This document shows positions 9,957 to 51,143 of a stretch of 64,000 nucleotides of DNA, piece after piece. The translations under genes were made by a program, and so were the position numbers. Source of the stretch: an uncultured Lachnospiraceae bacterium. GTDB lineage: Bacteria; Bacillota; Clostridia; Christensenellales; UBA1242. Location: assembly GCA_964646345.1 (NCBI GenBank), contig CAZYDU010000003.1:25310-89309 (forward strand), given 5' to 3'. Each line of letters begins with the position of its first letter. The stretch's first letter is position 1. Under the pieces are notes generated by a model. The model did no database searches. It was not told the DNA's origin and saw nothing but the letters and a program-made list of their open reading frames with translations.

Positions 9957-10298
9957 AAATAACTTCCTAGTACTAAAATTTGTGGATAATCCACCAAAAT
10001 TATTATAACAAACGATGTGGGATTTTTCAACTAATTAGATTTAATTTATAATTATATTTATTATACCTAATACAAAATCGTTTTTAATAATACTATCTTG
10101 ATGTCTCAAAACCGCAAAATTTTTCTACTTTTGTAAAAAAAATAATTATTAAGACTAAAATTTACATTTTTAATTTATTTTAAGAAAATCCATCACTTGT
10201 GTTACTATGAATATACAATCAAAATTAGTTGCCTAAAAATTCAATAATGTTTACAATATAAGCATATAAATTAATGTAACAAAACTTAAGGAGCTTTT

Positions 10299-12458: not shown

Positions 12459-13511
12459 ATGGAAAAAATAAAAATTAAAGATAAAATGAACAATGATTTA
12501 AACTTTGCATTTTCAATCAACTATTTAATTCTTGATATACTAGATAAAATTACACCTAAGGGCAAAACAAACTTCACAAGAGAAGATATTTTTGCTGAAA
12601 AATCAATGTATGAAAATTACTTGTTTGAATTGCACAAAATTTATGCAGAAGCCCGTGAAGAAACTTTCGATACTATTCAAGAAAATTTCAACTCCATGAA
12701 TTATGCAAAAACATTTAAACAAAACAATGAAATTTTGTTGGATTTATTTAACGAAACAATGGGAACACAAGTTAAATATGACGAAGTGTTTTCTGAAAAA
12801 GACATTGAGAACTGGGACTTTTTCACAGAGTTCGAAGAAAAACTATCAAATTCCAATTTCTCAGATTTAAAAGTCTCAACTCTTGGGATTATGTTATATC
12901 AATACCTTAGTTTTTATAATGACTACAAAAACTGGCGTTCAGTTACTGAGATTTTTGAAGTTTTAAAAAATGATTTCAATAGTTATGGAGCACAATCGTT
13001 TACTTATGGAAAAACACAAAATCAAGAAATCTTGAAAGTTGACTGCGATTTCCTAAAATCAGTTCTTGATAAATGTGATAGTTTCGTTGAAAAGTATTAC
13101 AAGCAATACAATAAACAATTAAAAAAACTTTCAAAGAATGAAGACCCAAATGTTTTGGGTATTCCTGAAAATTTCTCCATACTTGAACAATGCGGTTCAC
13201 TTGATAAACTTGTTGAGTATTGTGATTTATTTGAAAATAGAATACATTCAGCAAACTCGTCACCTAATCTCAAAAAACCACTAAGTGCTAAAATACTCGA
13301 ATTTATAAATAACTTAAAAAATGAGCCAACCGAACCTGTGAAGGTAAAAGACATTTATATCCACAAGATTGAAATGCTAGACTTTTTGTCTATTCTCTCA
13401 ATGTTCCCAGAACTTTCAGAAATAGCAAAGAATGTTTCAATAACATGTTTAGGCGAAGATTTGGTTTCTGACTTAGAAGAAAAAATAAACACACAATCTG
13501 AAAAACAATAA
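12459..13511 (+). CDS. Hypothetical protein, paralog B (350 aa)
   Basis: See paralog A; conserved terminal blocks and identical length. Confidence 0.75.
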   Translation: MEKIKIKDKMNNDLNFAFSINYLILDILDKITPKGKTNFTREDIFAEKSMYENYLFELHKIYAEAREETFDTIQENFNSMNYAKTFKQNNEILLDLFNETMGTQVKYDEVFSEKDIENWDFFTEFEEKLSNSNFSDLKVSTLGIMLYQYLSFYNDYKNWRSVTEIFEVLKNDFNSYGAQSFTYGKTQNQEILKVDCDFLKSVLDKCDSFVEKYYKQYNKQLKKLSKNEDPNVLGIPENFSILEQCGSLDKLVEYCDLFENRIHSANSSPNLKKPLSAKILEFINNLKNEPTEPVKVKDIYIHKIEMLDFLSILSMFPELSEIAKNVSITCLGEDLVSDLEEKINTQSEKQ

Positions 13512-13518
13512 ATAAAAA

Positions 13519-13547
13519 CACTTAACATTTTAGTTAAGCGTTTTTTT
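13519..13547 (+). terminator. Putative intrinsic terminator overlapping the 3' end of the convergent GH13 gene
   Basis: cacttaac / gttaagcg stem (one mismatch) followed by TTTTTTT. Confidence 0.5.
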
Positions 13548-15312: not shown

Positions 15313-15342
15313 AAAATAAACCCCCTTGCTTTATTTTATTTA

Positions 15343-17760: not shown

Positions 17761-17762
17761 TC

Positions 17763-19217
17763 CTATAATAATTCATTATATGTTTCAATATATTCTTTTG
17801 CGGTTTTATTCCAACTAAAGTCAAGTGACATGACTTTTTTGATTTTCTTTTCCCATTCAGCCTTGTCTTTAAAGTCATTTACTGCACGGCGAATAGAATA
17901 TTCAAGGTCACCAACAACTGCATTTGTGAATGTGTAACCATTACCACCACCAATGCAACCAAAGTCTTTGATAGTATCTTTAAGTCCACCAGTTTCACGA
18001 ACGATTGGAATAGCACCATAACGACTTGCAACAATTTGAGAAAGCCCGCATGGTTCTGTTAATGATGGCATTAAATAAATATCTGCACCAGAATAAATCT
18101 TTTTGCCAAGTTCTAAGCTGAAGCCTAAAGAAACATGCACGTTCTTTGGATATTTATTGTTAAGATAGCTAAAGAAATCGTAAAATTCCTTATCAGCAGC
18201 ACCAACACCAACAAGTTGAATGTCAAGTTCATTGATGAGTCTTTCAATACAACTTTTGATTAAATCAAAACCTTTTAATACATTGATTCTCGAACAAAAT
18301 GCCAAAATTGGTTTGTCAGGATTAACTTCCAAACAAAACTCTTTTTGCAAAAGTTCTTTGTTCTTTTTTCTTACATCGATGCTGTCTTTATCATAGTTTT
18401 GATAAATCACTTTGTCTGTTGCAGGATTGTAGAAATTGTAATCCAAACCATTCAAAATACCACGAAGCTTGTAAGCATTTTGGTTAACAATAGAAGACAA
18501 TCCGTTGCTATGTTCTGGTGTTTTGATTTCTTCAGCATAACTTGGACTAACTGTGATGATTTTGTCAGCAGTTACAATACCACCTTTCAAAATGTTAACA
18601 TCACCGTCTTGGTCAAGAATGTTTCTATATTGTTCATCAATACCCAAAACATCGGTTAAGATTTGTCTCCCGTATCTTCCTTGATATTGAATGTTGTGAA
18701 TATTTAAAATTGTTTTTATATTCTTGTATTTTTCGCCATAGTCTGTGGTCTTTAGATATACAGGGATAAGTGCTGATTGCCAATCATTAACATGAATAAT
18801 ATCTGGATAAAAGTCAATTATTGGCAAAATTTCAATGACACTTTTTGAGAAGAATGCAAATCTTTCTGCATCATCAAAGTAGCCATATTCGCCGTTATCA
18901 CGTTTGAAATATTTTTCATTGTCGATGAAATAATACTTGATGCCTTGATAATCATATTCAAAAACACCACAATATTCTTTTCTCCATGAAAGTGTGATAT
19001 AAATATATCCAATAAATTTAAAATCCTTTCTAAAGCATGATGGAATATTGCTATAAAGCGGAATGATTGTTCTTATGTCAATGTTTGGATTTTCTTGTTT
19101 AATTTCTCTTGGTAGACTTCCACAAACATCAGCTAGTCCACCTGTTGCACAAAAAGGTTGTGCTTCTGATGCTATAAATAACACCTTTTTCTTAGTATTT
19201 TTTTCTTGATTTTCCAT
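17763..19217 (-). CDS. glgA: Glycogen synthase
   Basis: N-terminal ASEAQPFCATGGLADV (KTGGL-type motif), plus C-terminal PSLTEPCGLSQ. Confidence 0.92.
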   Translation of the reverse strand: MENQEKNTKKKVLFIASEAQPFCATGGLADVCGSLPREIKQENPNIDIRTIIPLYSNIPSCFRKDFKFIGYIYITLSWRKEYCGVFEYDYQGIKYYFIDNEKYFKRDNGEYGYFDDAERFAFFSKSVIEILPIIDFYPDIIHVNDWQSALIPVYLKTTDYGEKYKNIKTILNIHNIQYQGRYGRQILTDVLGIDEQYRNILDQDGDVNILKGGIVTADKIITVSPSYAEEIKTPEHSNGLSSIVNQNAYKLRGILNGLDYNFYNPATDKVIYQNYDKDSIDVRKKNKELLQKEFCLEVNPDKPILAFCSRINVLKGFDLIKSCIERLINELDIQLVGVGAADKEFYDFFSYLNNKYPKNVHVSLGFSLELGKKIYSGADIYLMPSLTEPCGLSQIVASRYGAIPIVRETGGLKDTIKDFGCIGGGNGYTFTNAVVGDLEYSIRRAVNDFKDKAEWEKKIKKVMSLDFSWNKTAKEYIETYNELL

Positions 19218-19231
19218 ATTTTTTCTCCATA

Positions 19232-21673
19232 TTAATTATTTCCTGTTTGTTTTCTTGGTCTACCTTTTGGGCGTTTTGGTCTGTTTGCAAGTTCTGGGTC
19301 AATAGGTTTTCTTGGCCTACCCCTTGGGAGCTTTGGTTTGTTTGCCAGCTCCGGGTCAATAGGTTTTCTTGGCCTGCCCCTTGGAAGCTTTGGCTTGTTT
19401 GCCAGCTCCGGGTCAATAGGTTTTCTTGGCCTGCCCCTTGGAAGCTTTGGCTTATTTGCTAGTTCCGGGTCAATAGGTTTTCTTGGTCTGCCACGTTTTG
19501 CCTTTTTTATATTATCTGATTTCTCAGCTAGCTCCAATTCAATATCAGTAACTTCATTTAACACTTCGTTATTTTGAGAAGGTTCATTGTTTAAATTTAC
19601 ATCTTCGTTAATTTCTGTTTTGTTGTCATCTAATTTGATAGAAAATTGTTCTGGCACAAATTTTTTATTCATATCATCTTGTGAAAACAAATCTTTTCCT
19701 TCTGTCTTTGATTCAATAATTTTTGTTACAACATTTTTTGCTTCAATGGCTGAAACATTTCTATGACCTTGTTCTTCTTCTAATGATTCAAATTTAGATG
19801 AAATGGTAAGTGAATAATCTTTCTTTTTGAAGTATACCGCTGAGTTTGGCTCTAATGTTAACTCAATAGAGTTTTCAAAACCATTGATTCGAACAGCATA
19901 ACTTTCGATTGTTCCATAATGTCTGCCATTTCCACCAAATTTTGATGAGTTAGAGCAAAGTATTTCTTCATATCTACCTGCATCAACACCAACACGATAA
20001 TGTTCATGACGAACTGGTGAAAAGTTTGCAATAACAACAATGGACTCACCTTTTTTATTTTTCCTTTCAAAAGCTACAACATTATTCGTGCTATCGTCAG
20101 GTGTAAGCCATCTGAAACCTTCCCATGAGTAATCGATTTCATAAAATTCACTATTATCTTTATATAAATGATTAAGTGCTTTTGTAAAAGCGTACATTTT
20201 GTTGTGTTTTTCGTATTCAAGAAGCATAAAATCAATACCTTTTGAATTATTCCATTCATCAAACTGAGCAAATTCCGTTCCCATGAATGTAAGTTTTTTA
20301 CCTGGGTGGGCATACATATACATTAAAAATGTTCTCATCAAGTCAAATTTTTGATTGTATTCGCCAAACATTTTATTTAATAATGACTTTTTGCCATAAA
20401 CAACTTCGTCATGCGAAATTGGCAAAATAAAGTTTTCCGAAAATGCATAGAACATTGAAAAAGTTAGTTTTGAGTGATTATCTTTTCTAAAGAACGGGTC
20501 TAATTCGACATAAGAAAGTGTATCGTTCATCCAACCCATATTCCATTTATAGTTAAATCCAAGACCACCAATATAGCCTGGTTTTGTAACCATTGGCCAT
20601 GCGGTTGATTCTTCTGCAATCATAAGAGCGGTTGGTGTTTCTGTTAAAACAACCGAATTGAGTTTTCTTAAAAATTCAATAGCTTCAATATTTTTATTGT
20701 CGCCATATTGATTTGCAACCCACTCACCTTCTTTTTTATCATAATCAAGATAAAGCATTGAACTAACAGCGTCTAGTCTAAAACCATCAACGTGGTATTT
20801 ATCAATAAAGAATGTTGCAGAACTAATTAAGAATGATTGAACTTCTGGTTTGCCGTAGTCAAATCTGCGAGTACCCCAGGTTTTGTGTTCCATTCTATCC
20901 CAGCCTTGGTTTTCGTATAAATATCCGCCGTCCCATTCAACAAGACCATGCTCATCTTTTGGGAAATGTGCAGGAACCCAGTCAAGAATAATTGAAATAT
21001 CATTTTCATGACATTTATTAACAAAATATCTAAAATCATCAGGTGTTCCAAATCTGCTTGTCACTGAAAAGTAACCCGTAACCTGATAACCCCAACTTCC
21101 TTCATATGGATACTCAGTAAGTGGCATACACTCAATGTGTGTATAACCCATATCTTTAACATAAGGCACAAGTTCATCGGCAAGCTCTCTGTAAGAATAA
21201 TTTGAACCATCTTCATGCTTTTTCCAAGAGCTGAAATTTACTTCATAAACATTCATTGGTTTTTCAAAGTGGTTTTCTTTTTTCTTTTGCTCAAAGTACT
21301 CTTTATCCGTCCAATCAAAGTCTGAAAACTCGTATACTTTAGATGCGGTTGAACCATTAGTTTCGCTATGTACAGCATAAGGGTCAGCCTTAAAAAGTGT
21401 TCTATCATCTGCTGAAATGATTTGATATTTGTAGTTATCAAATTGTTTAACGCTTGGCACAAATACTTCCCAAATTGAGCTATTTTCTATTTTAGTAAGT
21501 TTATTTGTTTCACTATTCCAACCATTAAAGTCACCAACAACACTGATAGCTTTTGCGTTTGGAGACCAAACTCTAAACCACGCACCACCATTTTCTGGAT
21601 GACAACCCAAAAGATTGTATGCATGATAGTATGTGCCTTGATGAAATAAATAAATTTCCTTCGATTTTTCCAT
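19232..21673 (-). CDS. glgB: 1,4-alpha-glucan branching enzyme with a ~190-aa C-terminal extension carrying five AT-hook-like RGRPRK repeats
   Basis: GH13_9 core (DGFRLDAV, EESTAWP, ISHDEV) ends near aa 625. An acidic linker follows, then KRGRPRKPIDPELANKPKLP RGRPRKPIDPELANKPKLP ... KGRPRKQTGNN. Confidence 0.9.
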   Translation of the reverse strand: MEKSKEIYLFHQGTYYHAYNLLGCHPENGGAWFRVWSPNAKAISVVGDFNGWNSETNKLTKIENSSIWEVFVPSVKQFDNYKYQIISADDRTLFKADPYAVHSETNGSTASKVYEFSDFDWTDKEYFEQKKKENHFEKPMNVYEVNFSSWKKHEDGSNYSYRELADELVPYVKDMGYTHIECMPLTEYPYEGSWGYQVTGYFSVTSRFGTPDDFRYFVNKCHENDISIILDWVPAHFPKDEHGLVEWDGGYLYENQGWDRMEHKTWGTRRFDYGKPEVQSFLISSATFFIDKYHVDGFRLDAVSSMLYLDYDKKEGEWVANQYGDNKNIEAIEFLRKLNSVVLTETPTALMIAEESTAWPMVTKPGYIGGLGFNYKWNMGWMNDTLSYVELDPFFRKDNHSKLTFSMFYAFSENFILPISHDEVVYGKKSLLNKMFGEYNQKFDLMRTFLMYMYAHPGKKLTFMGTEFAQFDEWNNSKGIDFMLLEYEKHNKMYAFTKALNHLYKDNSEFYEIDYSWEGFRWLTPDDSTNNVVAFERKNKKGESIVVIANFSPVRHEHYRVGVDAGRYEEILCSNSSKFGGNGRHYGTIESYAVRINGFENSIELTLEPNSAVYFKKKDYSLTISSKFESLEEEQGHRNVSAIEAKNVVTKIIESKTEGKDLFSQDDMNKKFVPEQFSIKLDDNKTEINEDVNLNNEPSQNNEVLNEVTDIELELAEKSDNIKKAKRGRPRKPIDPELANKPKLPRGRPRKPIDPELANKPKLPRGRPRKPIDPELANKPKLPRGRPRKPIDPELANRPKRPKGRPRKQTGNN
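19237..19505. repeat. 57-bp tandem repeat array (about 4.7 units) encoding the AT-hook repeats
   Basis: Units start at 19294, 19351, 19408 and 19465, differ by only a few bases, and are flanked by degenerate copies. Confidence 0.9.
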
Positions 21674-21684
21674 TATTTTTTCCT

Positions 21685-23127
21685 TTATCTATTTTTTAAT
21701 TTTATTAATTTTTTGAGATACTTATTATATTCAGATTGTCTATAATTTGGGTCTAATTTATAAATCCAATTACCTTTGTTTGTTCCAGGTGTGTTTATTC
21801 TAAATTCGCTACCTTGAAACAATATATCTTGCATTGAAAGAATGCATACGTTTGAATTTGTAGATAATAAATCTTCTATCGCAATTTTTGTTACAATTTC
21901 ACTTGATGAGTTTTTTGATATTCCAAAATACTCACAGAATTTTTCCTTTTGGTCGGCATTATTTAAAAATCCAACAAATGTATCGTTATCATGTGTTCCA
22001 AGATATGCTACACTATTTTTTTCATAATCATGTGGAAGATGTGTGTTTTTTGTATTGCCGTCAAATGCAAATTGCATAACTTTCATACCGGCAAGACCTG
22101 TTCTTCTTCTTAAAGCTCTTGCTGAATACGAAAACTCACCAAGGTCTTCTAGAATTAAATTCTTTATACCATTAGCATAAAACGCTTCAAAAATATCCAT
22201 TCCTGGACCTTTCATCCAAGCACCATTTTTTACAGTCTGTTCTTTGTATGGTATTGCAAAAAATGATTCGAATCCCCTAAAATGGTCAATACGAATAAAA
22301 TCATACCATTTTGAAAGATGTTTAAGCCTTCTTACCCACCAATCATATTTCGTCTTTTTCATATAGTTATAATCGTAAAGCGGATTATTCCAAATTTGAC
22401 CTTCAGGATTGAAATAGTCGCCAGGAACACCAGAAATATAGGTTGGTTCGCTACTTTCATTTAAAAGAAAGTTTTTCTTACTCGAATACATATCAACACT
22501 ATCCATTGAGCAATAGATTGGAACATCTCCAATTATCAAAATTCCTTTTCGATTTGCATAAGATTTTAGTTCTTGCCATTGACTAAAGAAAAGATATTGC
22601 AAAAAAATGTAATACACTATTTCTTCTGAGTGAGATTTGATAAATTCAATGGTTTCTTTTGATTCTGTATCTTTATATTCACTTGGAAATTTTGTAAAAC
22701 CAACACCCAATTCTTCTTTTAAAACCATATAAACAGCATAGTCATATATCCATTTATCATTTTCTTCAATAAATCTGTCTATATCGGTTTTATAATAAAG
22801 TTTTGAAAAAACAAATCTTAAAGCTTTTTGTTTTTTTGTTCTGTATTCTTCAAAAGAAAGGTCATTGGATAATCCAAAAAATTCAATTTCATCTTTTGTT
22901 AAGAATTTTTCAATATCAATATAAAGTGGCTCCCCAGCAAAAGCTGAAACACTACTATAAGGAGAACCTGCACCATCAACAATGCCAAGTGGTAAGATTT
23001 GCCAATATTTCATGCCGAGTTCATGCAAATAATCAACAAATTCAAAAGCTTCGGCAGACAAACACCCAAAACCATATTTGTTTGGAATTGACGAAACTGG
23101 CAATAAAACACCGCAACCTCTTTCCAT
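21685..23127 (-). CDS. malQ: 4-alpha-glucanotransferase (amylomaltase, GH77)
   Basis: 480 aa with GVLLPVSSIP, IIGDVPIY, IRIDHFRGF and YLGTHDNDT motifs. Confidence 0.9.
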   Translation of the reverse strand: MERGCGVLLPVSSIPNKYGFGCLSAEAFEFVDYLHELGMKYWQILPLGIVDGAGSPYSSVSAFAGEPLYIDIEKFLTKDEIEFFGLSNDLSFEEYRTKKQKALRFVFSKLYYKTDIDRFIEENDKWIYDYAVYMVLKEELGVGFTKFPSEYKDTESKETIEFIKSHSEEIVYYIFLQYLFFSQWQELKSYANRKGILIIGDVPIYCSMDSVDMYSSKKNFLLNESSEPTYISGVPGDYFNPEGQIWNNPLYDYNYMKKTKYDWWVRRLKHLSKWYDFIRIDHFRGFESFFAIPYKEQTVKNGAWMKGPGMDIFEAFYANGIKNLILEDLGEFSYSARALRRRTGLAGMKVMQFAFDGNTKNTHLPHDYEKNSVAYLGTHDNDTFVGFLNNADQKEKFCEYFGISKNSSSEIVTKIAIEDLLSTNSNVCILSMQDILFQGSEFRINTPGTNKGNWIYKLDPNYRQSEYNKYLKKLIKLKNR

Positions 23128-34824: not shown

Positions 34825-34852
34825 TTGCAAAAACACAAAAATGTATTATAAT
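34825..34852 (+). promoter_or_regulatory. Putative parAB promoter
   Basis: TTGCAA, then 16 nt, then TATAAT. The predicted TSS lies downstream of the ORF-track ATG (34841), which supports the 34886 start. Confidence 0.45.
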
Positions 34853-34885: not shown

Positions 34886-35665
34886 ATGGGTAGGATTATT
34901 TCGTTTGCTAATCAAAAAGGTGGTGTTGGAAAAACAACTACCTGTGTTAATATGTCTGCTTATATGGCAATGTTGGGCAAAAAGGTATTAATTGTTGACC
35001 TTGACCCACAAGGAAATGCTACAAGTAATTTAGGGTTTTCAAAAGATGGTAAATATGACTCAATTTATCAGGTTATGAGTGGAGATAAAAAAGTTGAAGA
35101 TTGTGTTTATGATACAAAAGTGGATAATCTTAAAATAATTCCATCAAATATTGATTTGGCAGGTATTGAAGTTGAACTTGTTTACATGGAAAAAAGGGAA
35201 TATGTTATAAAAAAATTCTTTGAGAAAATAAAAAATGATTATGATTATATAACTATTGATTGCCCACCATCACTTGGTCTTTTGACGATTAACGCTTTTA
35301 CTGCGTCGGATGCTGTTATTATTCCAATCCAATGTGAATTTTTTGCTTTGGAAGGACTTAGTCAATTAATGAATACTATAAGGCTTGTAAAGAAAAAACT
35401 TAATTCTGAAATTTCAATAGATGGTGTTGTTTTGACAATGCGAGATACAAGAAGTAATTTGGGAAAACAGGTTGCTGAAGAAATTAAGAAATTTTTTGCC
35501 ACAACTGTTTTTGAAACACAGATTCCAAGAAATGTTAGACTTGCAGAAGCTCCAAGTTTTGGTGAGCCTATATGTATTTATGATAAATCTTGTGTTGGTG
35601 CAAAAGCTTATTTAAAGCTTACTGAAGAATATTTTTTAAGAAATAACGTTAAATATAGTAAATAA
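34886..35665 (+). CDS. parA: Chromosome partitioning ATPase ParA/Soj
   Basis: MGRIISFANQKGGVGKTT (deviant Walker A). AGGGGA RBS 5-6 nt upstream of this ATG. Confidence 0.92.
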   Translation: MGRIISFANQKGGVGKTTTCVNMSAYMAMLGKKVLIVDLDPQGNATSNLGFSKDGKYDSIYQVMSGDKKVEDCVYDTKVDNLKIIPSNIDLAGIEVELVYMEKREYVIKKFFEKIKNDYDYITIDCPPSLGLLTINAFTASDAVIIPIQCEFFALEGLSQLMNTIRLVKKKLNSEISIDGVVLTMRDTRSNLGKQVAEEIKKFFATTVFETQIPRNVRLAEAPSFGEPICIYDKSCVGAKAYLKLTEEYFLRNNVKYSK

Positions 35666-35678
35666 ATTAGGAGAAATT

Positions 35679-36557
35679 ATGAAAAGAGGATTGGGAAGGG
35701 GTTTAGATTCACTTTTTGGTGAATATGAAGATGAAAAACCAGCTGAAGAAGTTAAAATTGAAACGAAAATTGAACAAGTTATTGTAAATGAACCAAAAGA
35801 AATTGATATAGGATTAATTGATAGAAATCCTGATCAGCCTAGAAAAATCTTTGATGATGATGCGTTGAAAGAATTGTCTGATTCAATTAAGGTACATGGT
35901 GTTATTCAACCTATTATTGTTAAAAGAGTTGATGATAGATTTGTTATTATTGCAGGGGAAAGGCGTTGGAGAGCTTCTAGACTTGCTGGATTAAAAACTA
36001 TTCCTTGTATTATTAAGGATTATACGGAACAAGAAATTAGTGAAATTGCAATTATTGAAAATTTGCAAAGGGAAGATTTAAATCCAATAGAGTCGGCAAA
36101 AGCTATTAAGAATTTAATTAGTCAATATGATTTAACTCAAGATGAAGTTGCTGATAAAATAGGAAAAAGTAGACCAGCGGTTGCAAATACTTTAAGATTA
36201 TTGCTTTTACCTGATAGTATTATATCTTTGGTTGAATCAAATAAGATTTCTGCAGGACACGCAAGAGCTTTACTTTCAATTACTGACATAAAAAAGCAAA
36301 AAGAAATAGCTCTTTTAATCGTGGAAAAAGGTTTAACAGTTCGTGATGTTGAAAATCTAATTAAGAACCTTGGAAAACCAATACCTGAAAAGATAGTAAA
36401 AGAAAAAAGTCTTGAATTAAAAGATTTTGAAAATAGTATTAAAAGAGTTTTTGCAACAAAAGTTCAAATTAAAGGTAATGATAATAAAGGAAAAATTGTT
36501 ATTGATTATTATTCTAAAGATGACTTAAACAGAATCTATGATATTTTGAATAAATAA
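35679..36557 (+). CDS. parB: Chromosome partitioning protein ParB/Spo0J
   Basis: GERRWRA CTPase motif, HTH region TQDEVADKIGKSRPAVANTLRLL, and an AGGAG RBS. Confidence 0.93.
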   Translation: MKRGLGRGLDSLFGEYEDEKPAEEVKIETKIEQVIVNEPKEIDIGLIDRNPDQPRKIFDDDALKELSDSIKVHGVIQPIIVKRVDDRFVIIAGERRWRASRLAGLKTIPCIIKDYTEQEISEIAIIENLQREDLNPIESAKAIKNLISQYDLTQDEVADKIGKSRPAVANTLRLLLLPDSIISLVESNKISAGHARALLSITDIKKQKEIALLIVEKGLTVRDVENLIKNLGKPIPEKIVKEKSLELKDFENSIKRVFATKVQIKGNDNKGKIVIDYYSKDDLNRIYDILNK

Positions 36558-36561
36558 AAGA

Positions 36562-36577
36562 TGTTTCACGTGAAACA
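36562..36577. promoter_or_regulatory. parS: parS site 1 (TGTTTCACGTGAAACA), embedded in the parB terminator hairpin
   Basis: Perfect 16-bp palindrome matching the Firmicute parS consensus TGTTNCACGTGAAACA. The palindrome extends to aaaagaTGTTTCACGTGAAACAtctttt and is followed by a T-run. Confidence 0.85.
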
Positions 36578-36608
36578 TCTTTTTTGTTGTTTGTTTTTTT
36601 TGATACAT

Positions 36609-36624
36609 TGTTTCACGTGAAACA
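36609..36624. promoter_or_regulatory. parS: parS site 2
   Basis: Perfect site inside the 28-bp palindrome atacatTGTTTCACGTGAAACAatgtat. Confidence 0.85.
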
Positions 36625-36727
36625 ATGTATTTTTTATTATATAAATATTTTATTAAATTGATGTTATATTTATTATCAAATTAAACATTTTAGGTCTCAA
36701 TTAATTTTATATGTTTTAGAAGTAATA

Positions 36728-36743
36728 TGTTTCACGTGAAACA
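36728..36743. promoter_or_regulatory. parS: parS site 3
   Basis: Perfect TGTTTCACGTGAAACA. Confidence 0.85.
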
Positions 36744-36844
36744 TTTGTTTCTTTATAGTGATTTATTGTAATTGATTGTTTTAGACGGAATATGATTTGA
36801 TAAATATATTATTTATTATTTGGAATTACAATAAGAATGTTTAT

Positions 36845-36860
36845 TGTTTCATGTGAAACA
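36845..36860. promoter_or_regulatory. parS: parS-like site 4 (one mismatch)
   Basis: TGTTTCATGTGAAACA (central CG changed to TG). Confidence 0.65.
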
Positions 36861-37074
36861 TTTTATGTTGTTACAATTTATACATATTGTACCTTTTTAA
36901 TAAAAACAATAAAAACCTAGTAAGAATGGCAAATAATAATTTATATCAGGTTGTTTATTATTTTTTTTGGGGTATTGTAAAGAGATAATGAATCTTAAAT
37001 CTATTATAAATTTAATTTAGGGTTAAAATTGTGTAGATAAAACTAATTAAAGATAGTTGTATAAAAATAAAAAG

Positions 37075-37090
37075 TGTTTCACGTGAAACA
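37075..37090. promoter_or_regulatory. parS: parS site 5
   Basis: Perfect site inside the palindrome agTGTTTCACGTGAAACAct. Confidence 0.85.
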
Positions 37091-37173
37091 CTCTAGAATT
37101 TAATAATATAATAAGGAAATGTATTTTTATAGATAAAATCCTTTTTTAAAAAGATTAGAAACAAAAAAGGATG

Positions 37174-37189
37174 TGTTTCACGTGAAACA
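37174..37189. promoter_or_regulatory. parS: parS site 6, embedded in the cvpA terminator hairpin
   Basis: Perfect site. The extended stem ggatgTGTTTCACGTGAAACAtatcc is flanked by A/T runs directly after the cvpA stop. Confidence 0.85.
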
Positions 37190-37197
37190 TATCCTTT

Positions 37198-37962
37198 TTA
37201 GAAAACAAAATTAATTAAATCAGTGTATCCTAATAAATTATCTAGCAAATTAGTAATTTGATTGTAAATAAGCTTTCCAAAGAAAGAGTTACTAATGTAA
37301 TTTGTTATGGGTTTCATAAATGAAATAGGGGCTAAAAGCTTTATTATTATGCAAATAACTACTAAAATAAACAATCCGTGTAAAATTCCATAGAATGCAC
37401 CTAAAACATTATCTACAATTCTAATTAAACCAATGTTTCTTAGTTTGTTAATTAAAAGCTTAAATAGACATAGAATTAATAGTAATAATAAGAATGTTAT
37501 AGTGAAAGCAATAATTGTTGTAAAGAATGATGCATATGATTTTGATATAATTTCAGCAAGTGTTCTAGATTCAATGCCAGAACTATGTAACTTAGTGTAT
37601 AAAGACCTAGTGTTTAAGAATAATTTAAACATTATTCTAGGAATTAACGGAATTGCTCCAAGGTTTAAAGTAGATTTAACAAATGAACGCAAACTACTTT
37701 CTTCTATTAAAAGTAGATTTTCATTAAAATCCGGAGAAAATTCAACCAATTTTGTGTGATATGAATTAAATATTGCGTTTTTTAGTCCAAACCAGTTGTT
37801 TAATAATGAAGAAATTGGTTTATATAAGAAGAAAGTTATTGTAATAATTACCCAAAACGAGAAATTTGAAACAACTGATGACATAAAACCATTTTTTATG
37901 CCTATAATTATAAATATGATGATAAATAATATAATGGCAAGGTCAAGCCAGTTCATAAACAC
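37198..37962 (-). CDS. cvpA: CvpA-family membrane protein
   Basis: N-terminal NWLDLAIILFIIIFIIIGIKNGFMSS and a 4-5 TM topology typical of CvpA. Confidence 0.7.
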   Translation of the reverse strand: MFMNWLDLAIILFIIIFIIIGIKNGFMSSVVSNFSFWVIITITFFLYKPISSLLNNWFGLKNAIFNSYHTKLVEFSPDFNENLLLIEESSLRSFVKSTLNLGAIPLIPRIMFKLFLNTRSLYTKLHSSGIESRTLAEIISKSYASFFTTIIAFTITFLLLLLILCLFKLLINKLRNIGLIRIVDNVLGAFYGILHGLFILVVICIIIKLLAPISFMKPITNYISNSFFGKLIYNQITNLLDNLLGYTDLINFVF

Positions 37963-44317: not shown

Positions 44318-46024
44318 TTAGTTTCTAATATTATTGTTTGCATTTTTCGACAAAATATTCGCATATTTTCGATTAATTTCTATAAAAAATATTTCGTCAA
44401 AAATATCTTCAAATTGTGAGCTATTGAAATAACAAATAACCGTGCAATGTTTTTTGAGATTTAGAAAAACTTGTTTTATCAAGTCTTTATCTGAACGTGA
44501 TAAGTTTTCAGGCAACTTATAGATATTAATTATTTTCGAGCCGGAAAGATAAGCTCTAATAATTCCTAAAAGAAATCTTTGTTTAGTTGATATATCATTG
44601 TTAGCTAAGGTATTATATTTATCTTCAAAAGAACAGATAAATTCGCTTAGCCCGAGATTTTTTATTTCTTTAAATATCTTATTTCGTGACGGGCAAACCA
44701 AGTATAAATTTTCATAAATTGAGATATTGAAAAACTGTTCATTTGGAGTAACTGAAGAAATATATTTATTAATGTTGGGTTTATCGAGATTAGATATATT
44801 TTTATCTCCCAAAAAAATGCAACCGCCATCGGGTAAGGTTTGTTTAGTTGAAAGATTAAATAGCTCCAAAATTTTATAATCTTCGTCACCAACAAAACAA
44901 ACTAATGATTTGTAAGGAATTTTTAATTGCAAATCCTTTAGTTTTAATTTGGAGTTTGTTGAAACATTGTAGTAATACAAGTTAAACGACTCAAGCTCAA
45001 TGGGCTTTTCTTGTTGTGTGGCCTGAATGTATTTTAATGATTCAAAATGTTTTAGAGTATTATCCATCAGAGCTATTTCAGAGAAAATATCAAAAAATGA
45101 AATCAGGTTTTCAGCAGAACTTGTTAAGTATGGGGTTAATATTAAATAAACCGAAAGAGTGATTTCGGTTGATTTTACTTGACCAATTAAAAATAAAGTT
45201 GAAGCAAATACAGCTGTTTTTAAAATTAAAGATATAAAATTGTTATTGATATTATAAAGCATTGAAATTGAGTTGCTGGTTTTAATGTTTTCTTCAACAT
45301 ATTGAAAATACTTTTCTTTTAATGCATATTCAAGATTATAGTTTTTCTCAGCACTATCTCCACCGCAAATACTGTTAAATAGTCCAATAGAAACATTTTC
45401 ATATTTAGAAAGTTCCTTTGTTTTCGTTTGAATTTTGTTGTCCGTTAACTTTAATAAAAAATAAGAAATAATACTAACAATGATAATGCCGATTGCAAGA
45501 ATATAACTATAAAATAATATGATTCCGAGAATGATTAAAGCTTTTATAAAAAAACAAAATTTATATATTAAGTTTTTGTTAAAATTTACACAGGCTGAAA
45601 CATCTTTTAGAATTGTTACGTCAACATTTTTAACATTTTTATTGTTTTTAACATTATGATAAATATAGTTCTGATAATTAGTTATGATAATGCGGTTCAC
45701 TTTAATGCTGATTTTGTGGTAGCAAAAATATAAAAATGCAGAAACTAGTATCACAAGAAATTCTATAATGGTTTGTTTGATTGCTTTGTTAAAATCATAA
45801 ACTGTGATTGCTGTGATTGCATTAGAAACCAAAATAGGAGTCCATACTGAAAGAATTGCAGGAATTAGCAAGGTTAGAAACATTAAAAATATCAAAATGG
45901 GTTTTATTTTTGATAATTTATAAAATGACTTGATTGTCTTGAAATTTTTGAACAAAGATACTCCTAATTTGCTGTTTTTTATTGTAAAAACGAGCCTAAT
46001 GTTATATAATTTAATTATTAACAA
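44318..46024 (-). CDS. ABC-exporter-like TMD-NBD protein with all ATPase motifs degenerate
   Basis: N-terminal 6-TM ABC_membrane-like region. In the C-terminal NBD-like fold: Walker A is GDEDYKIL, the signature is ISTKQRF, Walker B is IINIYKLPEN, and the H-loop is VICYFN. An alternative TTG start at 45955 has AGGAG 5 nt upstream. Confidence 0.65.
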   Translation of the reverse strand: MLIIKLYNIRLVFTIKNSKLGVSLFKNFKTIKSFYKLSKIKPILIFLMFLTLLIPAILSVWTPILVSNAITAITVYDFNKAIKQTIIEFLVILVSAFLYFCYHKISIKVNRIIITNYQNYIYHNVKNNKNVKNVDVTILKDVSACVNFNKNLIYKFCFFIKALIILGIILFYSYILAIGIIIVSIISYFLLKLTDNKIQTKTKELSKYENVSIGLFNSICGGDSAEKNYNLEYALKEKYFQYVEENIKTSNSISMLYNINNNFISLILKTAVFASTLFLIGQVKSTEITLSVYLILTPYLTSSAENLISFFDIFSEIALMDNTLKHFESLKYIQATQQEKPIELESFNLYYYNVSTNSKLKLKDLQLKIPYKSLVCFVGDEDYKILELFNLSTKQTLPDGGCIFLGDKNISNLDKPNINKYISSVTPNEQFFNISIYENLYLVCPSRNKIFKEIKNLGLSEFICSFEDKYNTLANNDISTKQRFLLGIIRAYLSGSKIINIYKLPENLSRSDKDLIKQVFLNLKKHCTVICYFNSSQFEDIFDEIFFIEINRKYANILSKNANNNIRN

Positions 46025-46051: not shown

Positions 46052-46531
46052 ATGGAAGAAAACAACACTCAAAAACGTGACAAATGGGATAAACGTTTCA
46101 TGGAAATGGCAAAACTTGTTGGAACTTGGTGCACTTGCCATAGACGTCAAGTTGGGGCAATTATTGTTAAGGATAAACGCATTATCGCAACAGGTTACAA
46201 CGGAGCTCCTTCAGGAATTGAAAATTGTTTGGAAAAAGGTTATTGCATAAGAAACAAACTCAATATTCCAAGTGGAACGAAAGCTGAAACTTGTTATTCA
46301 GTTCATGCTGAACAAAATGCTATTATTCAAGCATCAAAACTTGGTATTGCCGTTGATGGAGCAACAATTTATGTTACACATCAACCTTGCACAATCTGCA
46401 CAAGGCTTATTATTAATGCTGGAATTAAAAGAATTGTTTATGGTATTGAATATCCTGATGAATTTTCTTTGCAATTATTAAATGAAGCGGGCATCGAACT
46501 TAAATTTTTACCTTATGGGGACGGTGAATAA
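46052..46531 (+). CDS. comEB: dCMP deaminase (ComEB-type)
   Basis: HAEQNAI and PCTICTR zinc motifs; 159 aa. Confidence 0.9.
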   Translation: MEENNTQKRDKWDKRFMEMAKLVGTWCTCHRRQVGAIIVKDKRIIATGYNGAPSGIENCLEKGYCIRNKLNIPSGTKAETCYSVHAEQNAIIQASKLGIAVDGATIYVTHQPCTICTRLIINAGIKRIVYGIEYPDEFSLQLLNEAGIELKFLPYGDGE

Positions 46532-46532
46532 A

Positions 46533-48731
46533 ATGGATATCATGATAATAATTTCTATTGCTCTTGGATTGCTTTTAATTATTGGTTTTTTGCTGGGATT
46601 TTTGCGAAGCTGGAAAAAATCAACAATAAGATTTGGATTAATCGTTGTTTGTTTTTTTGTTGCTTTGCTGTCATCTTCAAAAATTTCAGAAAGCCTTATG
46701 TCGAAATATGTTAGTGGTTTGGTTATTTCTATTTTTGGTCAAACCATAGATTTTGAGTCATTGGTTGGTGAAGTTGCAGGCGATTTGATTAGCGAAGGTT
46801 CTGCTCTAACAAATTTTGCAACTGCACTATTAAATATTTTTGTAAAATTAATTGCGTTTCTAATAGTATTCATTTCATTAATGGTTGTTACGTTATTGAT
46901 TTATTATATTATCGTTGCGATAATGTCTAGCAAACAAAAGAAAAAATCTGTAGGAAATATTACACCTAAATGGTGGGAAAGACTTATTGGTGGCGGTGTT
47001 GGAATTATAGGTTCACTATTAATTTGCATTGCACTATTTACCCCAGTGTTTGGTGTAATGAATGTTTGTGATAGATTTTTTGAAGAAGAATCTAAAAACG
47101 CAACAGCTTCAGCTTATGCTTATGAAAATAGTTTGATTTGTGGAAAGTTTTACACCGAAGATAAAAATATCGGAAAAGTTGAAACATACCTTGAAAAATA
47201 TGACAAGTTGAGAACAGAATATAAAAAATCTTTTGCGGGTTTTGTGTTCACTTATACTGGTGTTGATGCTATTGGAAAATCAACTTTTAACAAACTTTCA
47301 ACGGTAACTCAAAACGGAATGAATGTTAATTTCACGACAGAGTGTGTTAATATTATTAATGCCTATAATTTATACAAAACCAATTTTGTTGAAAACAAGT
47401 TTGATTTAGCAACCGAACAAAGTGTTGAAGCTGTGCAAAGTATTTATGATATTGCTAAAAATTCAGAAGTAATGCGAGAAGTTGTTTTGGATATTGTTCC
47501 ACGCATGGCTAGCAAATGGACAAATGATGAAACATTCCTTGGAATGGAATTGCCAGTTTCGGGCGATATGAAAGACATTGCAGTTGAACTTTTGGAAGTG
47601 TTTAACTCATCAGAGTTTGACGTTATTGATAGAAATATTAATGTTTTGCTCAATGCTATAAGGGTTGCAAACAAACATGATATTATTGTCGATGTTAATG
47701 CGGGTTCAGAATTAATGGACGTTATTGATAGAGATGATTTTGTTAAAGACGAACTCAATACTTTAGCAACTACTCCAGAAATGAAAAGAGCTTTGCCAAA
47801 CATAATGGTAACTACTGTTAAACTTGCTTACAAGTCGGTTATTGATACAGAACCTAGTGAGCCACTCGAACAAGAATTTACACAAGATGACATTGCAAAA
47901 ATCACTTGGAATAATGAATCAACAAGAATGCAAACTATTGTTACAAAAATGTTTGAGTTTTTTGATACACAAGATGTTATAAACAACTTAACAAATTTTG
48001 GTATTGTTATTGACAATGCAAGAAAGTCGGACGTTATTTCAAAACCTGTTCAAATTTTGATGTATGATTATATCAATTTAAAAGTTCAAGGTGTTGATAG
48101 TGCAAAATCTGTATTGCTAAGTGCGATAAAAAACAACTGGACATCGGAAGATTATAGTTACACAAGTTTGTTTGCAACGGTAGAAACAACCGCGAAAGTT
48201 GCTCAAAGTCTAGAAAATAAAACACTTGAAGACATGACTGGTTCGCTTGAAAATATCAAAAATAATGAAGAATTAAAACAAACTGTTCAAAATGCTGTTA
48301 ATAGTGGAATTATTAATGATTTGATTAGCGATGAAAAGAAAGCAAATATATATAAAGACATGATTAATAGTGTTTTGGATTCAGAAGAAGAATTGAATAT
48401 CGGAAACGAAATGAAGGCTGGACAAGTTGTATCAAACATTGTTAATAAGTCTTCAAACAAAGAAGGCAGTGAATCTTCAATGTTTGCGGGAGAAACGCAA
48501 GAAGAAAAAACACAAGAAGCAAAAGACTCAATCACTACACTCACTCAGTCAAATGCGGTTATGGATTTGCTTGGGATAGAATCAAACAAAAATGACTCTG
48601 CAGTGAAGTCTTATATTAATGGAATGAATAATGAAGACAAGATAGCTTTTGAAAATGCTATTAGAGACATGTCTGTAGGAGAAGACCAAAATACACTTGC
48701 AAAATTGTTTGGTGTAGACTTAAATTCGTAA
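46533..48731 (+). CDS. Large membrane protein: CvpA-like N-terminal 4-5 TM module plus a ~550-aa helical domain of unknown function
   Basis: I prefer the start at MDIMIIISIALGLLLIIGFLLGFLRSWKK (ATG 46533, 2 nt after the comEB stop). The ORF-track start at 46482 overlaps comEB. Confidence 0.7.
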   Translation: MDIMIIISIALGLLLIIGFLLGFLRSWKKSTIRFGLIVVCFFVALLSSSKISESLMSKYVSGLVISIFGQTIDFESLVGEVAGDLISEGSALTNFATALLNIFVKLIAFLIVFISLMVVTLLIYYIIVAIMSSKQKKKSVGNITPKWWERLIGGGVGIIGSLLICIALFTPVFGVMNVCDRFFEEESKNATASAYAYENSLICGKFYTEDKNIGKVETYLEKYDKLRTEYKKSFAGFVFTYTGVDAIGKSTFNKLSTVTQNGMNVNFTTECVNIINAYNLYKTNFVENKFDLATEQSVEAVQSIYDIAKNSEVMREVVLDIVPRMASKWTNDETFLGMELPVSGDMKDIAVELLEVFNSSEFDVIDRNINVLLNAIRVANKHDIIVDVNAGSELMDVIDRDDFVKDELNTLATTPEMKRALPNIMVTTVKLAYKSVIDTEPSEPLEQEFTQDDIAKITWNNESTRMQTIVTKMFEFFDTQDVINNLTNFGIVIDNARKSDVISKPVQILMYDYINLKVQGVDSAKSVLLSAIKNNWTSEDYSYTSLFATVETTAKVAQSLENKTLEDMTGSLENIKNNEELKQTVQNAVNSGIINDLISDEKKANIYKDMINSVLDSEEELNIGNEMKAGQVVSNIVNKSSNKEGSESSMFAGETQEEKTQEAKDSITTLTQSNAVMDLLGIESNKNDSAVKSYINGMNNEDKIAFENAIRDMSVGEDQNTLAKLFGVDLNS

Positions 48732-49799: not shown

Positions 49800-51143
49800 A
49801 TGGTTAAAAGTCGATTTTTAGAGTTTGTTCACGATTACATTTTAAAAATGTTCACAGGCTCTGAAATTATTGGAGAAGAAGAATCTTCAACTCGTGATAA
49901 TATTATTGCTCAGGGCGAAGCGGGTTCAATTAAGGTTAAGTTTGATAGAGAAGATAATTATAGAATTATTATCAAACGTGCTCAGCCTTTCAAAAATTTG
50001 GAAATTTCGCTTATCAAGTCAATAATTGAAGAATCACAAAAAATTGATGATTTAAGCATTAAAGATGATTACAAAAAAGGCTTAAAAAATCTTGTAATTG
50101 AAAAAGCAATTTGCAGGTCTCTTTCAAATTCTTGTGCAAAAACCCTTGCGGTAATTTTGCGTGAAATGAATTATTGGGGGCAAAGAACATATGAAGGGAA
50201 TAGAATAACTTTGGGCTGTATTGTCAGCAATAAAAAGGTTGGAAGCAAAACCAATCAAAATTTGCATGTATCAAAGTTATTTGAAAAAGATTTCAGTGCT
50301 CTTTTGTCTGACGGCAAAAATTCATTCATTGAAATTTCTGCTGATGGATTTTTTGTTGACCATATAAATTTCTCGAAAGTTGTTGATTATTCGCTTTATG
50401 CTCCTTATGAAAACCTGGAATTAGCGAGTTTATCAACTGGTTCAAAAATTGGAATTTGCCTAAATAGCGAAGGCGAAGTTTTGATATTTAAAAACAAAAG
50501 TTTGGTTTTTGCAAAAAAGAGTGGTGTTTGGGTTTGTTTTTCGCATGAAGAAATTGTTGGTAAACTAGCAGAGCATGCTGGAGAATATGAAGATGTGAGA
50601 AAAGCCATATATCTATCGGCTCTAGACACAAGCTTTAATCGTTGCGGTGGGTGTATTGTTCACGTTAACTCAGGTGATTCTAAAAATGTTTTAAAACACA
50701 TTGACGTTGCTGATGTTTTGTTAAGAGATAGCTACGACTACTTGCAACAAGAAAAAATCAATCAATCCTTTTTCGTTAAGCTAGATGATAATGTTTCAGA
50801 AATTCCTTCATTTGATGAATTTTTATATGAAGAAAGAAGTGCCAAGTCGGCAGCTTTGATTAAACTTATAAAGGGAAGAAAATTTCAGGAGCTTGATAGA
50901 AAGTTTAGGCAAGAAATAATTGCTATCGATGGTGCTACAATTATTGACTATGACGGAACAATTATTGCGGCGGGGGCAATTATAAAGATTGAAGCCGGTA
51001 GTACTGGTGGTGGAAGACTTGCAGCGGCAAAAACATTATCGAATTACGGAATTTCGATAAAAATTTCTAATGACGGCTCAATGCAAGGCTTTAAAATTGA
51101 TAAAAATAAATTAAGAGCAAGACTGATATTTGTTATTGGTTAA
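49800..51143 (+). CDS. Protein with an unknown N-terminal domain and a divergent DisA_N/diadenylate-cyclase-like C-terminal domain lacking RHR
   Basis: C-terminal region: RCGGCIVHV (GALIV position), IDGATIIDYDGTIIAAG (DGA motif), TGGGRLAAA (at the GTRHRAA position), and ISIKISNDGS (IVVSEETG position). The alignment was done by eye only. Confidence 0.45.
   Translation: MVKSRFLEFVHDYILKMFTGSEIIGEEESSTRDNIIAQGEAGSIKVKFDREDNYRIIIKRAQPFKNLEISLIKSIIEESQKIDDLSIKDDYKKGLKNLVIEKAICRSLSNSCAKTLAVILREMNYWGQRTYEGNRITLGCIVSNKKVGSKTNQNLHVSKLFEKDFSALLSDGKNSFIEISADGFFVDHINFSKVVDYSLYAPYENLELASLSTGSKIGICLNSEGEVLIFKNKSLVFAKKSGVWVCFSHEEIVGKLAEHAGEYEDVRKAIYLSALDTSFNRCGGCIVHVNSGDSKNVLKHIDVADVLLRDSYDYLQQEKINQSFFVKLDDNVSEIPSFDEFLYEERSAKSAALIKLIKGRKFQELDRKFRQEIIAIDGATIIDYDGTIIAAGAIIKIEAGSTGGGRLAAAKTLSNYGISIKISNDGSMQGFKIDKNKLRARLIFVIG

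What the first reader, a model, noticed from the sequence alone, without database searches (positions are those of the whole stretch)
36558..37197. Six parS palindromes packed into a 640-bp non-coding region immediately downstream of parB
TGTTTCACGTGAAACA matches the Firmicute parS consensus perfectly. It occurs at 36562, 36609, 36728, 37075 and 37174, with a one-mismatch copy (TGTTTCATGTGAAACA) at 36845. I did not see the motif anywhere else in the 64 kb. In B. subtilis, parS sites are scattered over hundreds of kb and mostly lie inside genes. Here a dedicated intergenic centromere-like array follows parAB and contains no convincing ORF. This is the largest non-coding gap in the window.
Basis: partly seen in the sequence, partly recalled or inferred. 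Interest (0 to 1): 0.65.

Follow-up and report, generated by a model that had tools for sequence, protein, structure and literature searches.

The report
Dense chromosomal parS centromere array
Six copies of the bacterial centromere motif parS fill the 640-bp gap after the parA-parB genes of an uncultured gut Clostridia bacterium; this is a real, conserved but unusually compact version of a well-known chromosome-segregation site.

Summary
There are five perfect TGTTTCACGTGAAACA sites and one one-mismatch copy at the stated coordinates, and none elsewhere in the 64 kb (0.03 expected by chance).

The sites lie between convergent parB and a cvpA-like gene, in the window's largest non-coding gap. 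That gap has no credible ORF, no Rfam match and no DnaA-box cluster.

ParB is canonical. It has the GERRWRA CTP-binding motif and parS-type specificity residues. ParA is a small Soj-type ATPase.

All six closest relatives (ParB 73-87% identical) keep an array of 4-11 sites in the same place, although the spacer DNA cannot be aligned. A diverged strain keeps all six sites: only 2 of its 42 gap substitutions fall in the cores.

The reading as a dedicated intergenic centromere is therefore supported. The kind is already known from parS clusters in Caulobacter and Corynebacterium and from the plasmid parA-parB-parS layout. Only the density is unusual, and other Clostridia show similar arrays.

Origin proximity is suggested by GC skew but not shown.

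Two side observations are newer. The outermost sites are built into terminator-like hairpins of the flanking genes. In relatives that avoid ACGT, the central ACGT of parS has been rewritten.

The parts
34886..35665 (+). parA (Soj-type partition ATPase, about 259 aa counted from the ATG at 34886; the longest ORF starts at 34841)
   Evidence: Pfam AAA_31, CbiA and ParA domains. Deviant Walker A motif NQKGGVGKTT. Called as 259 aa on identical contigs. A promoter-like TTGCAA-16-TATAAT lies at 34825-34852.
35679..36557 (+). parB (Spo0J-type CTPase clamp, 292 aa)
   Evidence: Pfam ParB_N, HTH_ParB and ParB_C; TIGR00180 scores 196 bits, and the protein is below the Noc cutoff. Best solved-structure matches are chromosomal ParBs (7bnk, 6sdk, 6t1f), with GERRWRA and ENLQREDL conserved. 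The GKSR..NT..AGHAR motifs correspond to R173/T179/G201, the parS-type specificity residues.
36562..36577 (.). parS1, perfect. It is embedded in the hairpin 36556-36583, which overlaps the parB stop codon and is followed by a T-run.
   Evidence: Terminator-like on both strands. RNA fold -15.6 kcal/mol, z -4.3.
36609..36624 (.). parS2, perfect. It is embedded in the 13-bp-stem hairpin 36602-36631, followed by TTTTTTATT.
   Evidence: Fold -14.4 kcal/mol, z -5.3. A diverged strain carries A>G at 36622.
36728..36743 (.). parS3, perfect, interior site
   Evidence: Weak extended fold of -9.2 kcal/mol. Unchanged in the diverged strain.
36845..36860 (.). parS4, one mismatch (CATGTG core)
   Evidence: Position 36852 is C in a diverged strain, which gives a perfect site there. 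The window's T is therefore a CpG-to-TpG polymorphism.
37075..37090 (.). parS5, perfect. It has a 2-bp extension and is terminator-like on the minus strand (37094-37071).
   Evidence: Fold -10.8 kcal/mol on the minus strand.
37174..37189 (.). parS6, perfect. It is embedded in the hairpin 37164-37199, which abuts the stop codon of the minus-strand cvpA-like gene and is followed by a U-tract on that strand.
   Evidence: Inverted repeat I20, 18 nt arms, 94% complementary. Fold -15.0 kcal/mol, z -4.6.
36558..37197 (.). Non-coding centromere gap, 20% GC. Site spacings are irregular: 47, 119, 117, 230 and 99 bp.
   Evidence: No Rfam family near threshold. DnaA-like box density equals the window background. 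Spacers cannot be aligned to relatives.
37198..37962 (-). cvpA-like membrane protein gene, convergent with parB. It is the syntenic right-hand boundary of the array.
   Evidence: Pfam Colicin_V. The same neighbour is present in L001, L003, L005, L006 and L074-76.

Best explanation
The gap is the chromosomal centromere of a ParABS segregation system.

Each of the six 16-bp palindromes is a loading site where a ParB dimer binds through its helix-turn-helix domain, closes as a CTP-dependent clamp and slides onto flanking DNA. Six loading sites within 640 bp feed a single partition complex. The Soj-type ParA then acts on that complex, and it probably also loads SMC.

The multiple sites give redundancy and a high loading rate. 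They are not each required: in other species a single site is enough.

The outermost sites (parS1, parS2 and parS6) are built into longer hairpins followed by T-runs, placed exactly at the 3' ends of the convergent parB and cvpA genes. They probably double as intrinsic terminators that keep transcription out of the array.

What is shown: the motif, its statistical excess, the gene context, the ParB and ParA motifs, conservation between and within species, and the hairpin energetics. What is inferred: ParB binding, clamp loading, termination and the link to the origin.
For: Motif: 6 sites against 0.03 expected, exclusive to this gap.

Proteins: ParB has its N-terminal, HTH and C-terminal domains, the GERRWRA motif and parS-type specificity residues. 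ParA has a deviant Walker A motif.

Between species: L001-L006 all carry 4-11 sites directly downstream of parB, with the same ABC-GT4-parA-parB-array-cvpA-ftsH synteny. Flanking genes are 66-78% identical in DNA, but in the gap only the parS cores and their immediate palindromic flanks find matches.

Within species: a strain with 42 substitutions, 9 indels and a 67-nt replacement in the gap keeps all six sites. Only 2 substitutions fall in the cores, and one of them restores the consensus (binomial P = 0.02, or 0.005 if indels are counted).

Hairpins: -14.4 to -15.6 kcal/mol, z -4.3 to -5.3. In the 3.8-kb scan, 4 terminator-like hits against 0.7 expected, all of them at parS sites. 13 of 46 sites in the clade have at least 4 bp of extra palindrome, against about 1% in controls. 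The flank sequences differ between sites yet stay complementary. Other genes in the window end in comparable terminators.

Precedent: in C. glutamicum, ten identical parS sites, nine of them intergenic, recruit ParB, and one site suffices (PMC7083940).
Against: There is no binding or expression data. Only DNA metagenomes hold this locus.

Origin proximity is unproven: no dnaA gene and no DnaA-box cluster was found.

The rest of the genome could not be scanned, so other parS sites may exist.

Terminator stems built on the parS core have few G-C pairs. Interior sites lack extensions. In L003 and L004 the first site after parB is not extended, so the terminator role is not universal in the clade.
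Confidence: 0.85

Rival explanations
1. The palindromes are mainly intrinsic terminators or a REP-like palindromic repeat family. Their match to parS is incidental or secondary.
For: Four of the six sites score as terminator-like. The extended stems have strongly negative z-scores.
Against: Five exact 16/16 matches to the parS consensus lie directly beside parB and nowhere else in 64 kb. Interior sites have no extension or only a weak T-run. Other terminators in the window use unrelated stems. In relatives the 16-mer is conserved but the flanks are not.
Confidence: 0.04
2. The gap is, or contains, the replication origin, with the parS sites interspersed in oriC.
For: It is the largest AT-rich non-coding gap (20% GC). 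GC skew changes sign upstream of it.
Against: DnaA-like boxes occur at background density: 3 with up to 2 mismatches in 640 bp, the same as the window average. The equivalent gaps of L001 and L003-L005 have none with up to 1 mismatch, and L006's 3.4-kb gap has one. No dnaA or dnaN gene lies in the window. The GC3 skew switch lies left of 29.5 kb, not at the gap.
Confidence: 0.03
3. The parA-parB-parS cassette derives from a plasmid or integrative element, since the P1 and F plasmids have the same layout with the centromere downstream of parB. It would then not be the native chromosomal centromere.
For: The gene order parA-parB-centromere array mirrors type Ia plasmid partition loci.
Against: Synteny with housekeeping genes (ftsH, ychF, leuS) is stable across six species. 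ParA is a small ATPase with no N-terminal DNA-binding extension. The closest solved structures to ParB are chromosomal ParBs, and the site is the chromosomal consensus. The sites are not tandem iterons.
Confidence: 0.04
4. The main role of the array is regulatory or architectural. It would act as a ParB roadblock or silencing domain controlling neighbouring genes (cvpA, ftsH, parAB), or as a ParB sink. This does not exclude the centromere role.
For: ParB bound at intergenic parS represses adjacent genes in P. aeruginosa (PMC7022226). Six sites would concentrate a lot of ParB.
Against: The array lies downstream of both convergent genes, not over a promoter. No expression data exist.
Confidence: 0.1

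Closest known systems
Corynebacterium glutamicum oriC-proximal parS cluster (PMC7083940)
   Same: Multiple identical B. subtilis-type 16-bp parS sites form one cluster, almost all of them intergenic. They are bound by chromosomal ParB, and one site is sufficient.
   Different: That cluster has ten sites over 35 kb spread across many gaps. Here six sites lie in one 0.64-kb gap, roughly 30 times denser. ParB binding is demonstrated there by ChIP-seq but not here.
Caulobacter crescentus parS cluster near parAB (PMC5815017)
   Same: At least five parS sites cluster close to the parAB operon and about 8 kb from ori, nucleating a ParB domain of about 10 kb.
   Different: Those sites differ in sequence and affinity and are spread over kilobases. 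The distance to the origin is known there and unknown here.
Plasmid type Ia centromeres (F sopC, P1 parS) - from general knowledge
   Same: The layout is parA-parB followed directly by a multi-site centromere. F sopC carries repeated 16-bp inverted repeats.
   Different: sopC is a regular 43-bp tandem array with its own plasmid-specific motif, and its ParA carries an N-terminal DNA-binding domain. Here the spacing is irregular (47-230 bp), the spacers are unrelated, the motif is the chromosomal consensus and ParA is the small type.
Bacillus subtilis Spo0J parS sites - from general knowledge
   Same: The same 16-bp consensus and the same ParB family.
   Different: The B. subtilis sites are dispersed over the origin-proximal part of the chromosome and are often inside genes. 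Here they are concentrated in one dedicated gap.
parS arrays upstream of parA in Lachnospiraceae genomes
   Same: The same motif in dense intergenic arrays next to parAB. L010 has 9 sites in a 1.25-kb gap free of long ORFs.
   Different: These arrays lie upstream of parA rather than downstream of parB. L027 is a true 71-bp tandem repeat.

Membership tests
Chromosomal ParABS centromere (parS) | 16-bp palindrome matching TGTTNCACGTGAAACA | tested here: met
   Five perfect sites and one with a single mismatch.
Chromosomal ParABS centromere (parS) | Cognate ParB with an HTH DNA-binding domain, the GERRxR CTP-binding motif and parS-type specificity residues (R173, G201) | tested here: met
   Residue roles are taken from PMC7383237.
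Chromosomal ParABS centromere (parS) | Cognate Walker-type ParA in an operon with parB | tested here: met
   (KGGVGKT motif).
Chromosomal ParABS centromere (parS) | Origin-proximal location | tested here: inconclusive
   The cumulative GC skew minimum lies at about 32-33 kb, and top-strand GC3 skew is positive from 29.5 kb on. However, there is no dnaA gene and no DnaA-box cluster.
Chromosomal ParABS centromere (parS) | Selective conservation of the sites relative to surrounding DNA | tested here: met
   Between species. Within species: (2 of 42 substitutions fall in the cores, P = 0.02).
Chromosomal ParABS centromere (parS) | Specific ParB binding and CTP-dependent loading at the sites | not testable with these tools
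   The organism is uncultured, and only DNA metagenomes are available.
Plasmid iteron-type centromere (sopC-like tandem array) | Regular head-to-tail repeat units containing the binding site | tested here: not met
   Spacings are 47, 119, 117, 230 and 99 bp. Flanks are only 68-81% alike in AT-rich DNA.
Intrinsic (Rho-independent) terminator | Stable hairpin followed by a U-tract directly after a stop codon | tested here: met
   parS1, parS2 and parS6. Their positions match those of other terminators in the window.
Intrinsic (Rho-independent) terminator | Transcripts end there in vivo | not testable with these tools
   No RNA runs hold the locus.
oriC | Cluster of DnaA boxes plus an AT-rich unwinding element, usually next to dnaA | tested here: not met

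The most novel reading that the evidence does not exclude
The array is a transcription-insulated regional centromere. Its outermost parS palindromes would be dual-function elements: ParB loading sites in the DNA, and terminator hairpins in the RNA of the convergent flanking genes.

In addition, the centromere core appears to evolve under restriction-site avoidance. In lineages that purge ACGT, every site in the array loses the central ACGT through one asymmetric change, while the ParB DNA-contact residues stay the same.
Probability: 0.3. Interest if true: 0.55.

Novelty: new member of a known kind. Interest (0 to 1): 0.35.

Why it matters
This shows that some uncultured gut Clostridia concentrate their chromosomal centromere into one short, gene-free, plasmid-like array instead of scattering sites as B. 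subtilis does. Such arrays turn over quickly in copy number and spacing while the motif is kept.

That makes the 640-bp fragment a compact natural substrate for studying multi-site ParB loading.

The side observations, if confirmed, would link the evolution of the centromere sequence to transcription termination and to restriction-modification pressure. I found neither link in the literature searched.

Tried and rejected
**oriC in the gap.** DnaA boxes are at background density in the window's gaps and nearly absent from the relatives' gaps. Rejected.

**Hidden RNA gene.** No Rfam hit reaches gathering score. The best E-value hits score 21-25 bits against cutoffs of 49-111. Rejected.

**Hidden small protein.** Only 23-33 aa low-complexity ORFs are present, and they are not conserved. 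Rejected.

**Tandem-duplication origin of the sites.** Spacings are irregular and the flanks are unrelated. Not supported for this window, although it is true for L027.

**ParB co-evolution with the variant cores in relatives.** The DNA-contact motifs are invariant. Not supported.

**Transcription evidence.** Only DNA metagenomes hold the locus.

**Strain variation in copy number.** Four contigs encoding the identical ParB have the same 640-nt gap. The diverged strain keeps six sites.

**Promoter enrichment in the region around the gap.** 32 promoter-like hits against 28.8 expected. No signal.

**Literature.** Searches for parS as a terminator and for restriction avoidance at parS found nothing relevant. 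Livny et al. 2007 could not be opened.

**L006's 3.4-kb gap.** No RNA family, no further parS sites and no alternative-code ORFs were found. It stays unexplained.

Full report
**1. Observation**

A search for TGTTTCACGTGAAACA allowing up to 2 mismatches finds exactly six matches in the 64-kb window. Five are perfect (36562, 36609, 36728, 37075, 37174). One has a single mismatch (36845, central CATGTG). Shuffles give 0.03 expected, and none of 100 shuffles reached six.

The 8-bp half-site occurs only twice outside the array. The gap 36558-37197 is the largest stretch without an ORF of at least 100 aa (640 bp; the next largest is 342 bp). It contains only 23-33 aa low-complexity ORFs.

**2. Context**

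Upstream lie a GT4 glycosyltransferase, a Soj-type ParA and a ParB. ParA has the Walker A motif NQKGGVGKTT, and its likely start is the ATG at 34886. ParB has its N-terminal, HTH and C-terminal domains.

Downstream, and convergent with parB, is a cvpA-like membrane protein gene, followed by ftsH and ychF. The rest of the window is ordinary chromosome: leuS, gltX, a glycogen operon, and cell-envelope glycosyltransferases.

The closest solved structures to ParB are chromosomal ParBs from Myxococcus, B. subtilis, Caulobacter, Thermus and Helicobacter. The alignment shows the CTP-binding motif GERRWRA and the ENLQREDL box.

Using the Caulobacter numbering of Jalal et al. (PMC7383237), the motifs GKSR...NT...AGHAR give R173, T179, L184 and G201. 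This is the RxxG pattern of parS-specific proteins rather than Noc-type proteins.

**3. Organism and relatives**

A scan of one genome per species with the ParB protein returned 73 loci. The closest are uncultured gut Clostridia MAGs of 26-31% GC, with ParB 73-87% identical (L001-L006).

All six carry parS-like sites directly downstream of parB, between 4 and 11 of them. Where the contig extends far enough, the synteny is the same: ABC exporters, GT4, parA, parB, array, cvpA, ftsH.

blastn shows the flanking genes at 66-78% nucleotide identity. Within the gap, only short segments centred on the parS cores find matches. Copy number, spacing and spacer sequence all turn over, while the motif and its location persist.

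**4. Within-species test**

Public gut metagenomes hold the locus. Four contigs that encode the identical ParB have the same 640-nt gap.

A diverged strain (runs X9 and X11) differs in the gap by 42 substitutions and 9 listed indels, and the 67 nt between parS5 and parS6 are replaced. It still keeps all six sites.

Only two substitutions fall in the 96 core positions. One, 36622 A>G, weakens parS2. The other, 36852 T>C, turns the window's imperfect parS4 into a perfect site. With cores making up 16.8% of the alignable positions, two or fewer hits has P = 0.02, or 0.005 if indels are counted.

**5. What the gap is not**

- It matches no Rfam family.
- DnaA-like boxes occur at the window's background density, and the relatives' gaps have essentially none.
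- It is not a tandem iteron array: the spacings are 47, 119, 117, 230 and 99 bp and the flanks are unrelated.
- Promoter-like matches are not enriched.

**6. Hairpins**

parS1, parS2 and parS6 sit inside longer palindromes followed by T-runs. parS1 overlaps the parB stop codon, and parS6 abuts the cvpA stop codon on the other strand.

Predicted RNA hairpins are -15.6, -14.4 and -15.0 kcal/mol, with z-scores from -4.3 to -5.3. In the 3.8-kb region scanned, all four terminator-like hits are parS sites, against 0.7 expected.

Across the clade, 13 of 46 sites have at least 4 bp of extra perfect palindrome, against about 1% for random positions. The flank sequences differ from site to site yet remain complementary. 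The long extensions are mostly at the array edges: the window, L001, L005, and the last site of L004.

Elsewhere in the window, genes end in conventional hairpin-plus-T-run terminators at equivalent positions. I therefore infer that the edge sites double as terminators of the convergent genes and keep RNA polymerase out of the array. This is inference only: no RNA data exist, and L003 and L004 lack an extended first site.

**7. Origin proximity**

Cumulative GC skew has its minimum at about 32-33 kb, and gene orientation flips at 33.2 kb.

Third-codon-position skew separates replication bias from coding bias. On the top strand it is negative left of 7 kb, near zero from 7 to 28 kb, and positive from 29.5 kb onward for genes on both strands. 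This fits an origin-type polarity switch a few kb to about 30 kb left of the array.

However, there is no dnaA, dnaN or gyrB gene and no DnaA-box cluster in the window. I cannot decide this point.

**8. Mechanism**

The best explanation is a dedicated chromosomal centromere. ParB dimers load at six closely spaced parS sites, close as CTP-dependent clamps and spread onto flanking DNA. ParA then acts on the resulting complex. The multiple sites provide redundancy and a high loading flux.

The sequence features are shown. Binding, spreading and termination are inferred from the known behaviour of this protein family (PMC7053999, PMC8367383, PMC7083940).

**9. Comparison with known systems**

Clustered, mostly intergenic parS sites near parAB are established. 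C. glutamicum has ten identical sites within 35 kb, nine of them intergenic, and one is sufficient. Caulobacter has at least five sites about 8 kb from ori.

The parA-parB-centromere layout is classic for P1 and F plasmids (general knowledge).

What differs here is density: one site per roughly 107 bp, all in one gap. That is not unique either. In my sample, 6 of 74 loci have at least five sites within 1 kb. One of these is an independent array of nine sites upstream of parA in a Lachnospiraceae MAG, and another is a 71-bp tandem parS repeat in a Dorea MAG.

I therefore rate this as a new member of a known kind.

**10. Side finding on centromere sequence evolution**

In L001 all nine sites read CATGTG or CACATG. 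In L004 most read CACGGG. In L006, three of four sites are altered. These are the loci where ACGT is almost absent from the surrounding DNA:

| Locus | ACGT observed (outside parS) | ACGT expected from CG and base frequencies |
|---|---|---|
| L001 | 1 | 21 |
| L004 | 0 | 9.5 |
| L006 | 4 | 22 |

The window and L005, whose ACGT depletion is mild or absent, keep canonical cores.

The pattern recurs outside the clade. Acetivibrio L053 has a ratio of 0.22 and ACAT cores. In loci with a ratio of at least 0.35, 93 of 107 sites are intact. L003 is a clear exception, with a ratio of 0.97 and 0 of 11 sites intact.

The ParB DNA-contact motifs are invariant across these lineages. My reading is that avoidance of an ACGT-type restriction site rewrites the palindromic centromere core by one asymmetric change, and that ParB tolerates it. 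The samples are only 7-13 kb per genome, and sites within one array are not independent, so this remains a lead.

**11. Verdict**

Interest is moderate to low. The terminator-embedded edge sites and the link to ACGT avoidance are the parts most worth following up.

Noticed in passing
L001:6906-7823, L004:1499-2102, L006:7165-8477, L053 (relatives); window 36845-36860: In relatives whose DNA is strongly depleted of ACGT (L001 1 observed against 21 expected; L004 0 against 9.5; L006 4 against 22; L053 6 against 27.5), the parS sites have lost the central ACGT through one asymmetric change (CATGTG/CACATG or CACGGG). The ParB DNA-contact motifs are unchanged. L003 is an exception: ACGT is not depleted there, yet 0 of 11 sites are intact. 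This suggests that restriction-site avoidance reshapes the centromere core.
   Followed up: partly
window 1-64000: GATC (8 observed against about 140-179 expected) and GCGC (4 against about 27-44) are strongly under-represented in the window. This looks like the footprint of restriction-modification systems.
   Followed up: no
L006:6892-10292 and L006:3896-5115: This relative has a 3.4-kb stretch of 14-22% GC between parB and cvpA with no ORF of 80 aa or more and only four parS sites. It also has a 1.2-kb ORF-poor stretch where the GT4 gene lies in the other genomes. No Rfam family, no DnaA-box cluster and no alternative-code signal was found, only some short AT-rich tandem repeats.
   Followed up: partly
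L010:3810-4882; L027:37-333; L036:2255-5111: Lachnospiraceae genomes carry parS arrays upstream of parA instead of downstream of parB. L010 has nine sites in a 1.25-kb gap free of long ORFs. L027 has five sites in a 71-bp tandem repeat, resembling sopC. L036 has seven sites, five of them at a spacing of about 400 bp.
   Followed up: partly
window 7000-33200; 9981-9989: There is an origin-type GC3-skew polarity switch and a flip in gene strand, but no dnaA or dnaN gene anywhere in the 64 kb. The only perfect DnaA box (9981, minus strand) sits alone in the second-largest gap, 9957-10298.
   Followed up: partly
window 37096-37162: In a diverged strain (runs X9 and X11), the 67 nt between parS5 and parS6 are replaced by 66 unrelated letters while both flanking sites stay intact. 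This is a local cassette-like replacement inside the array.
   Followed up: partly
window 11312-12364 and 12459-13511; 44318-46024; 46482-48731; 49800-51143: There are two adjacent 350-aa ORFs without Pfam matches (whether they are related to each other was not checked). Three large ORFs of 568, 749 and 447 aa also have no Pfam match at E <= 1e-5.
   Followed up: no
window 13534-23127: A complete glycogen-metabolism operon lies on the minus strand: alpha-amylase family enzyme, glycogen phosphorylase, starch synthase, branching enzyme and 4-alpha-glucanotransferase. Its GC3 skew is near zero, unlike its surroundings.
   Followed up: no
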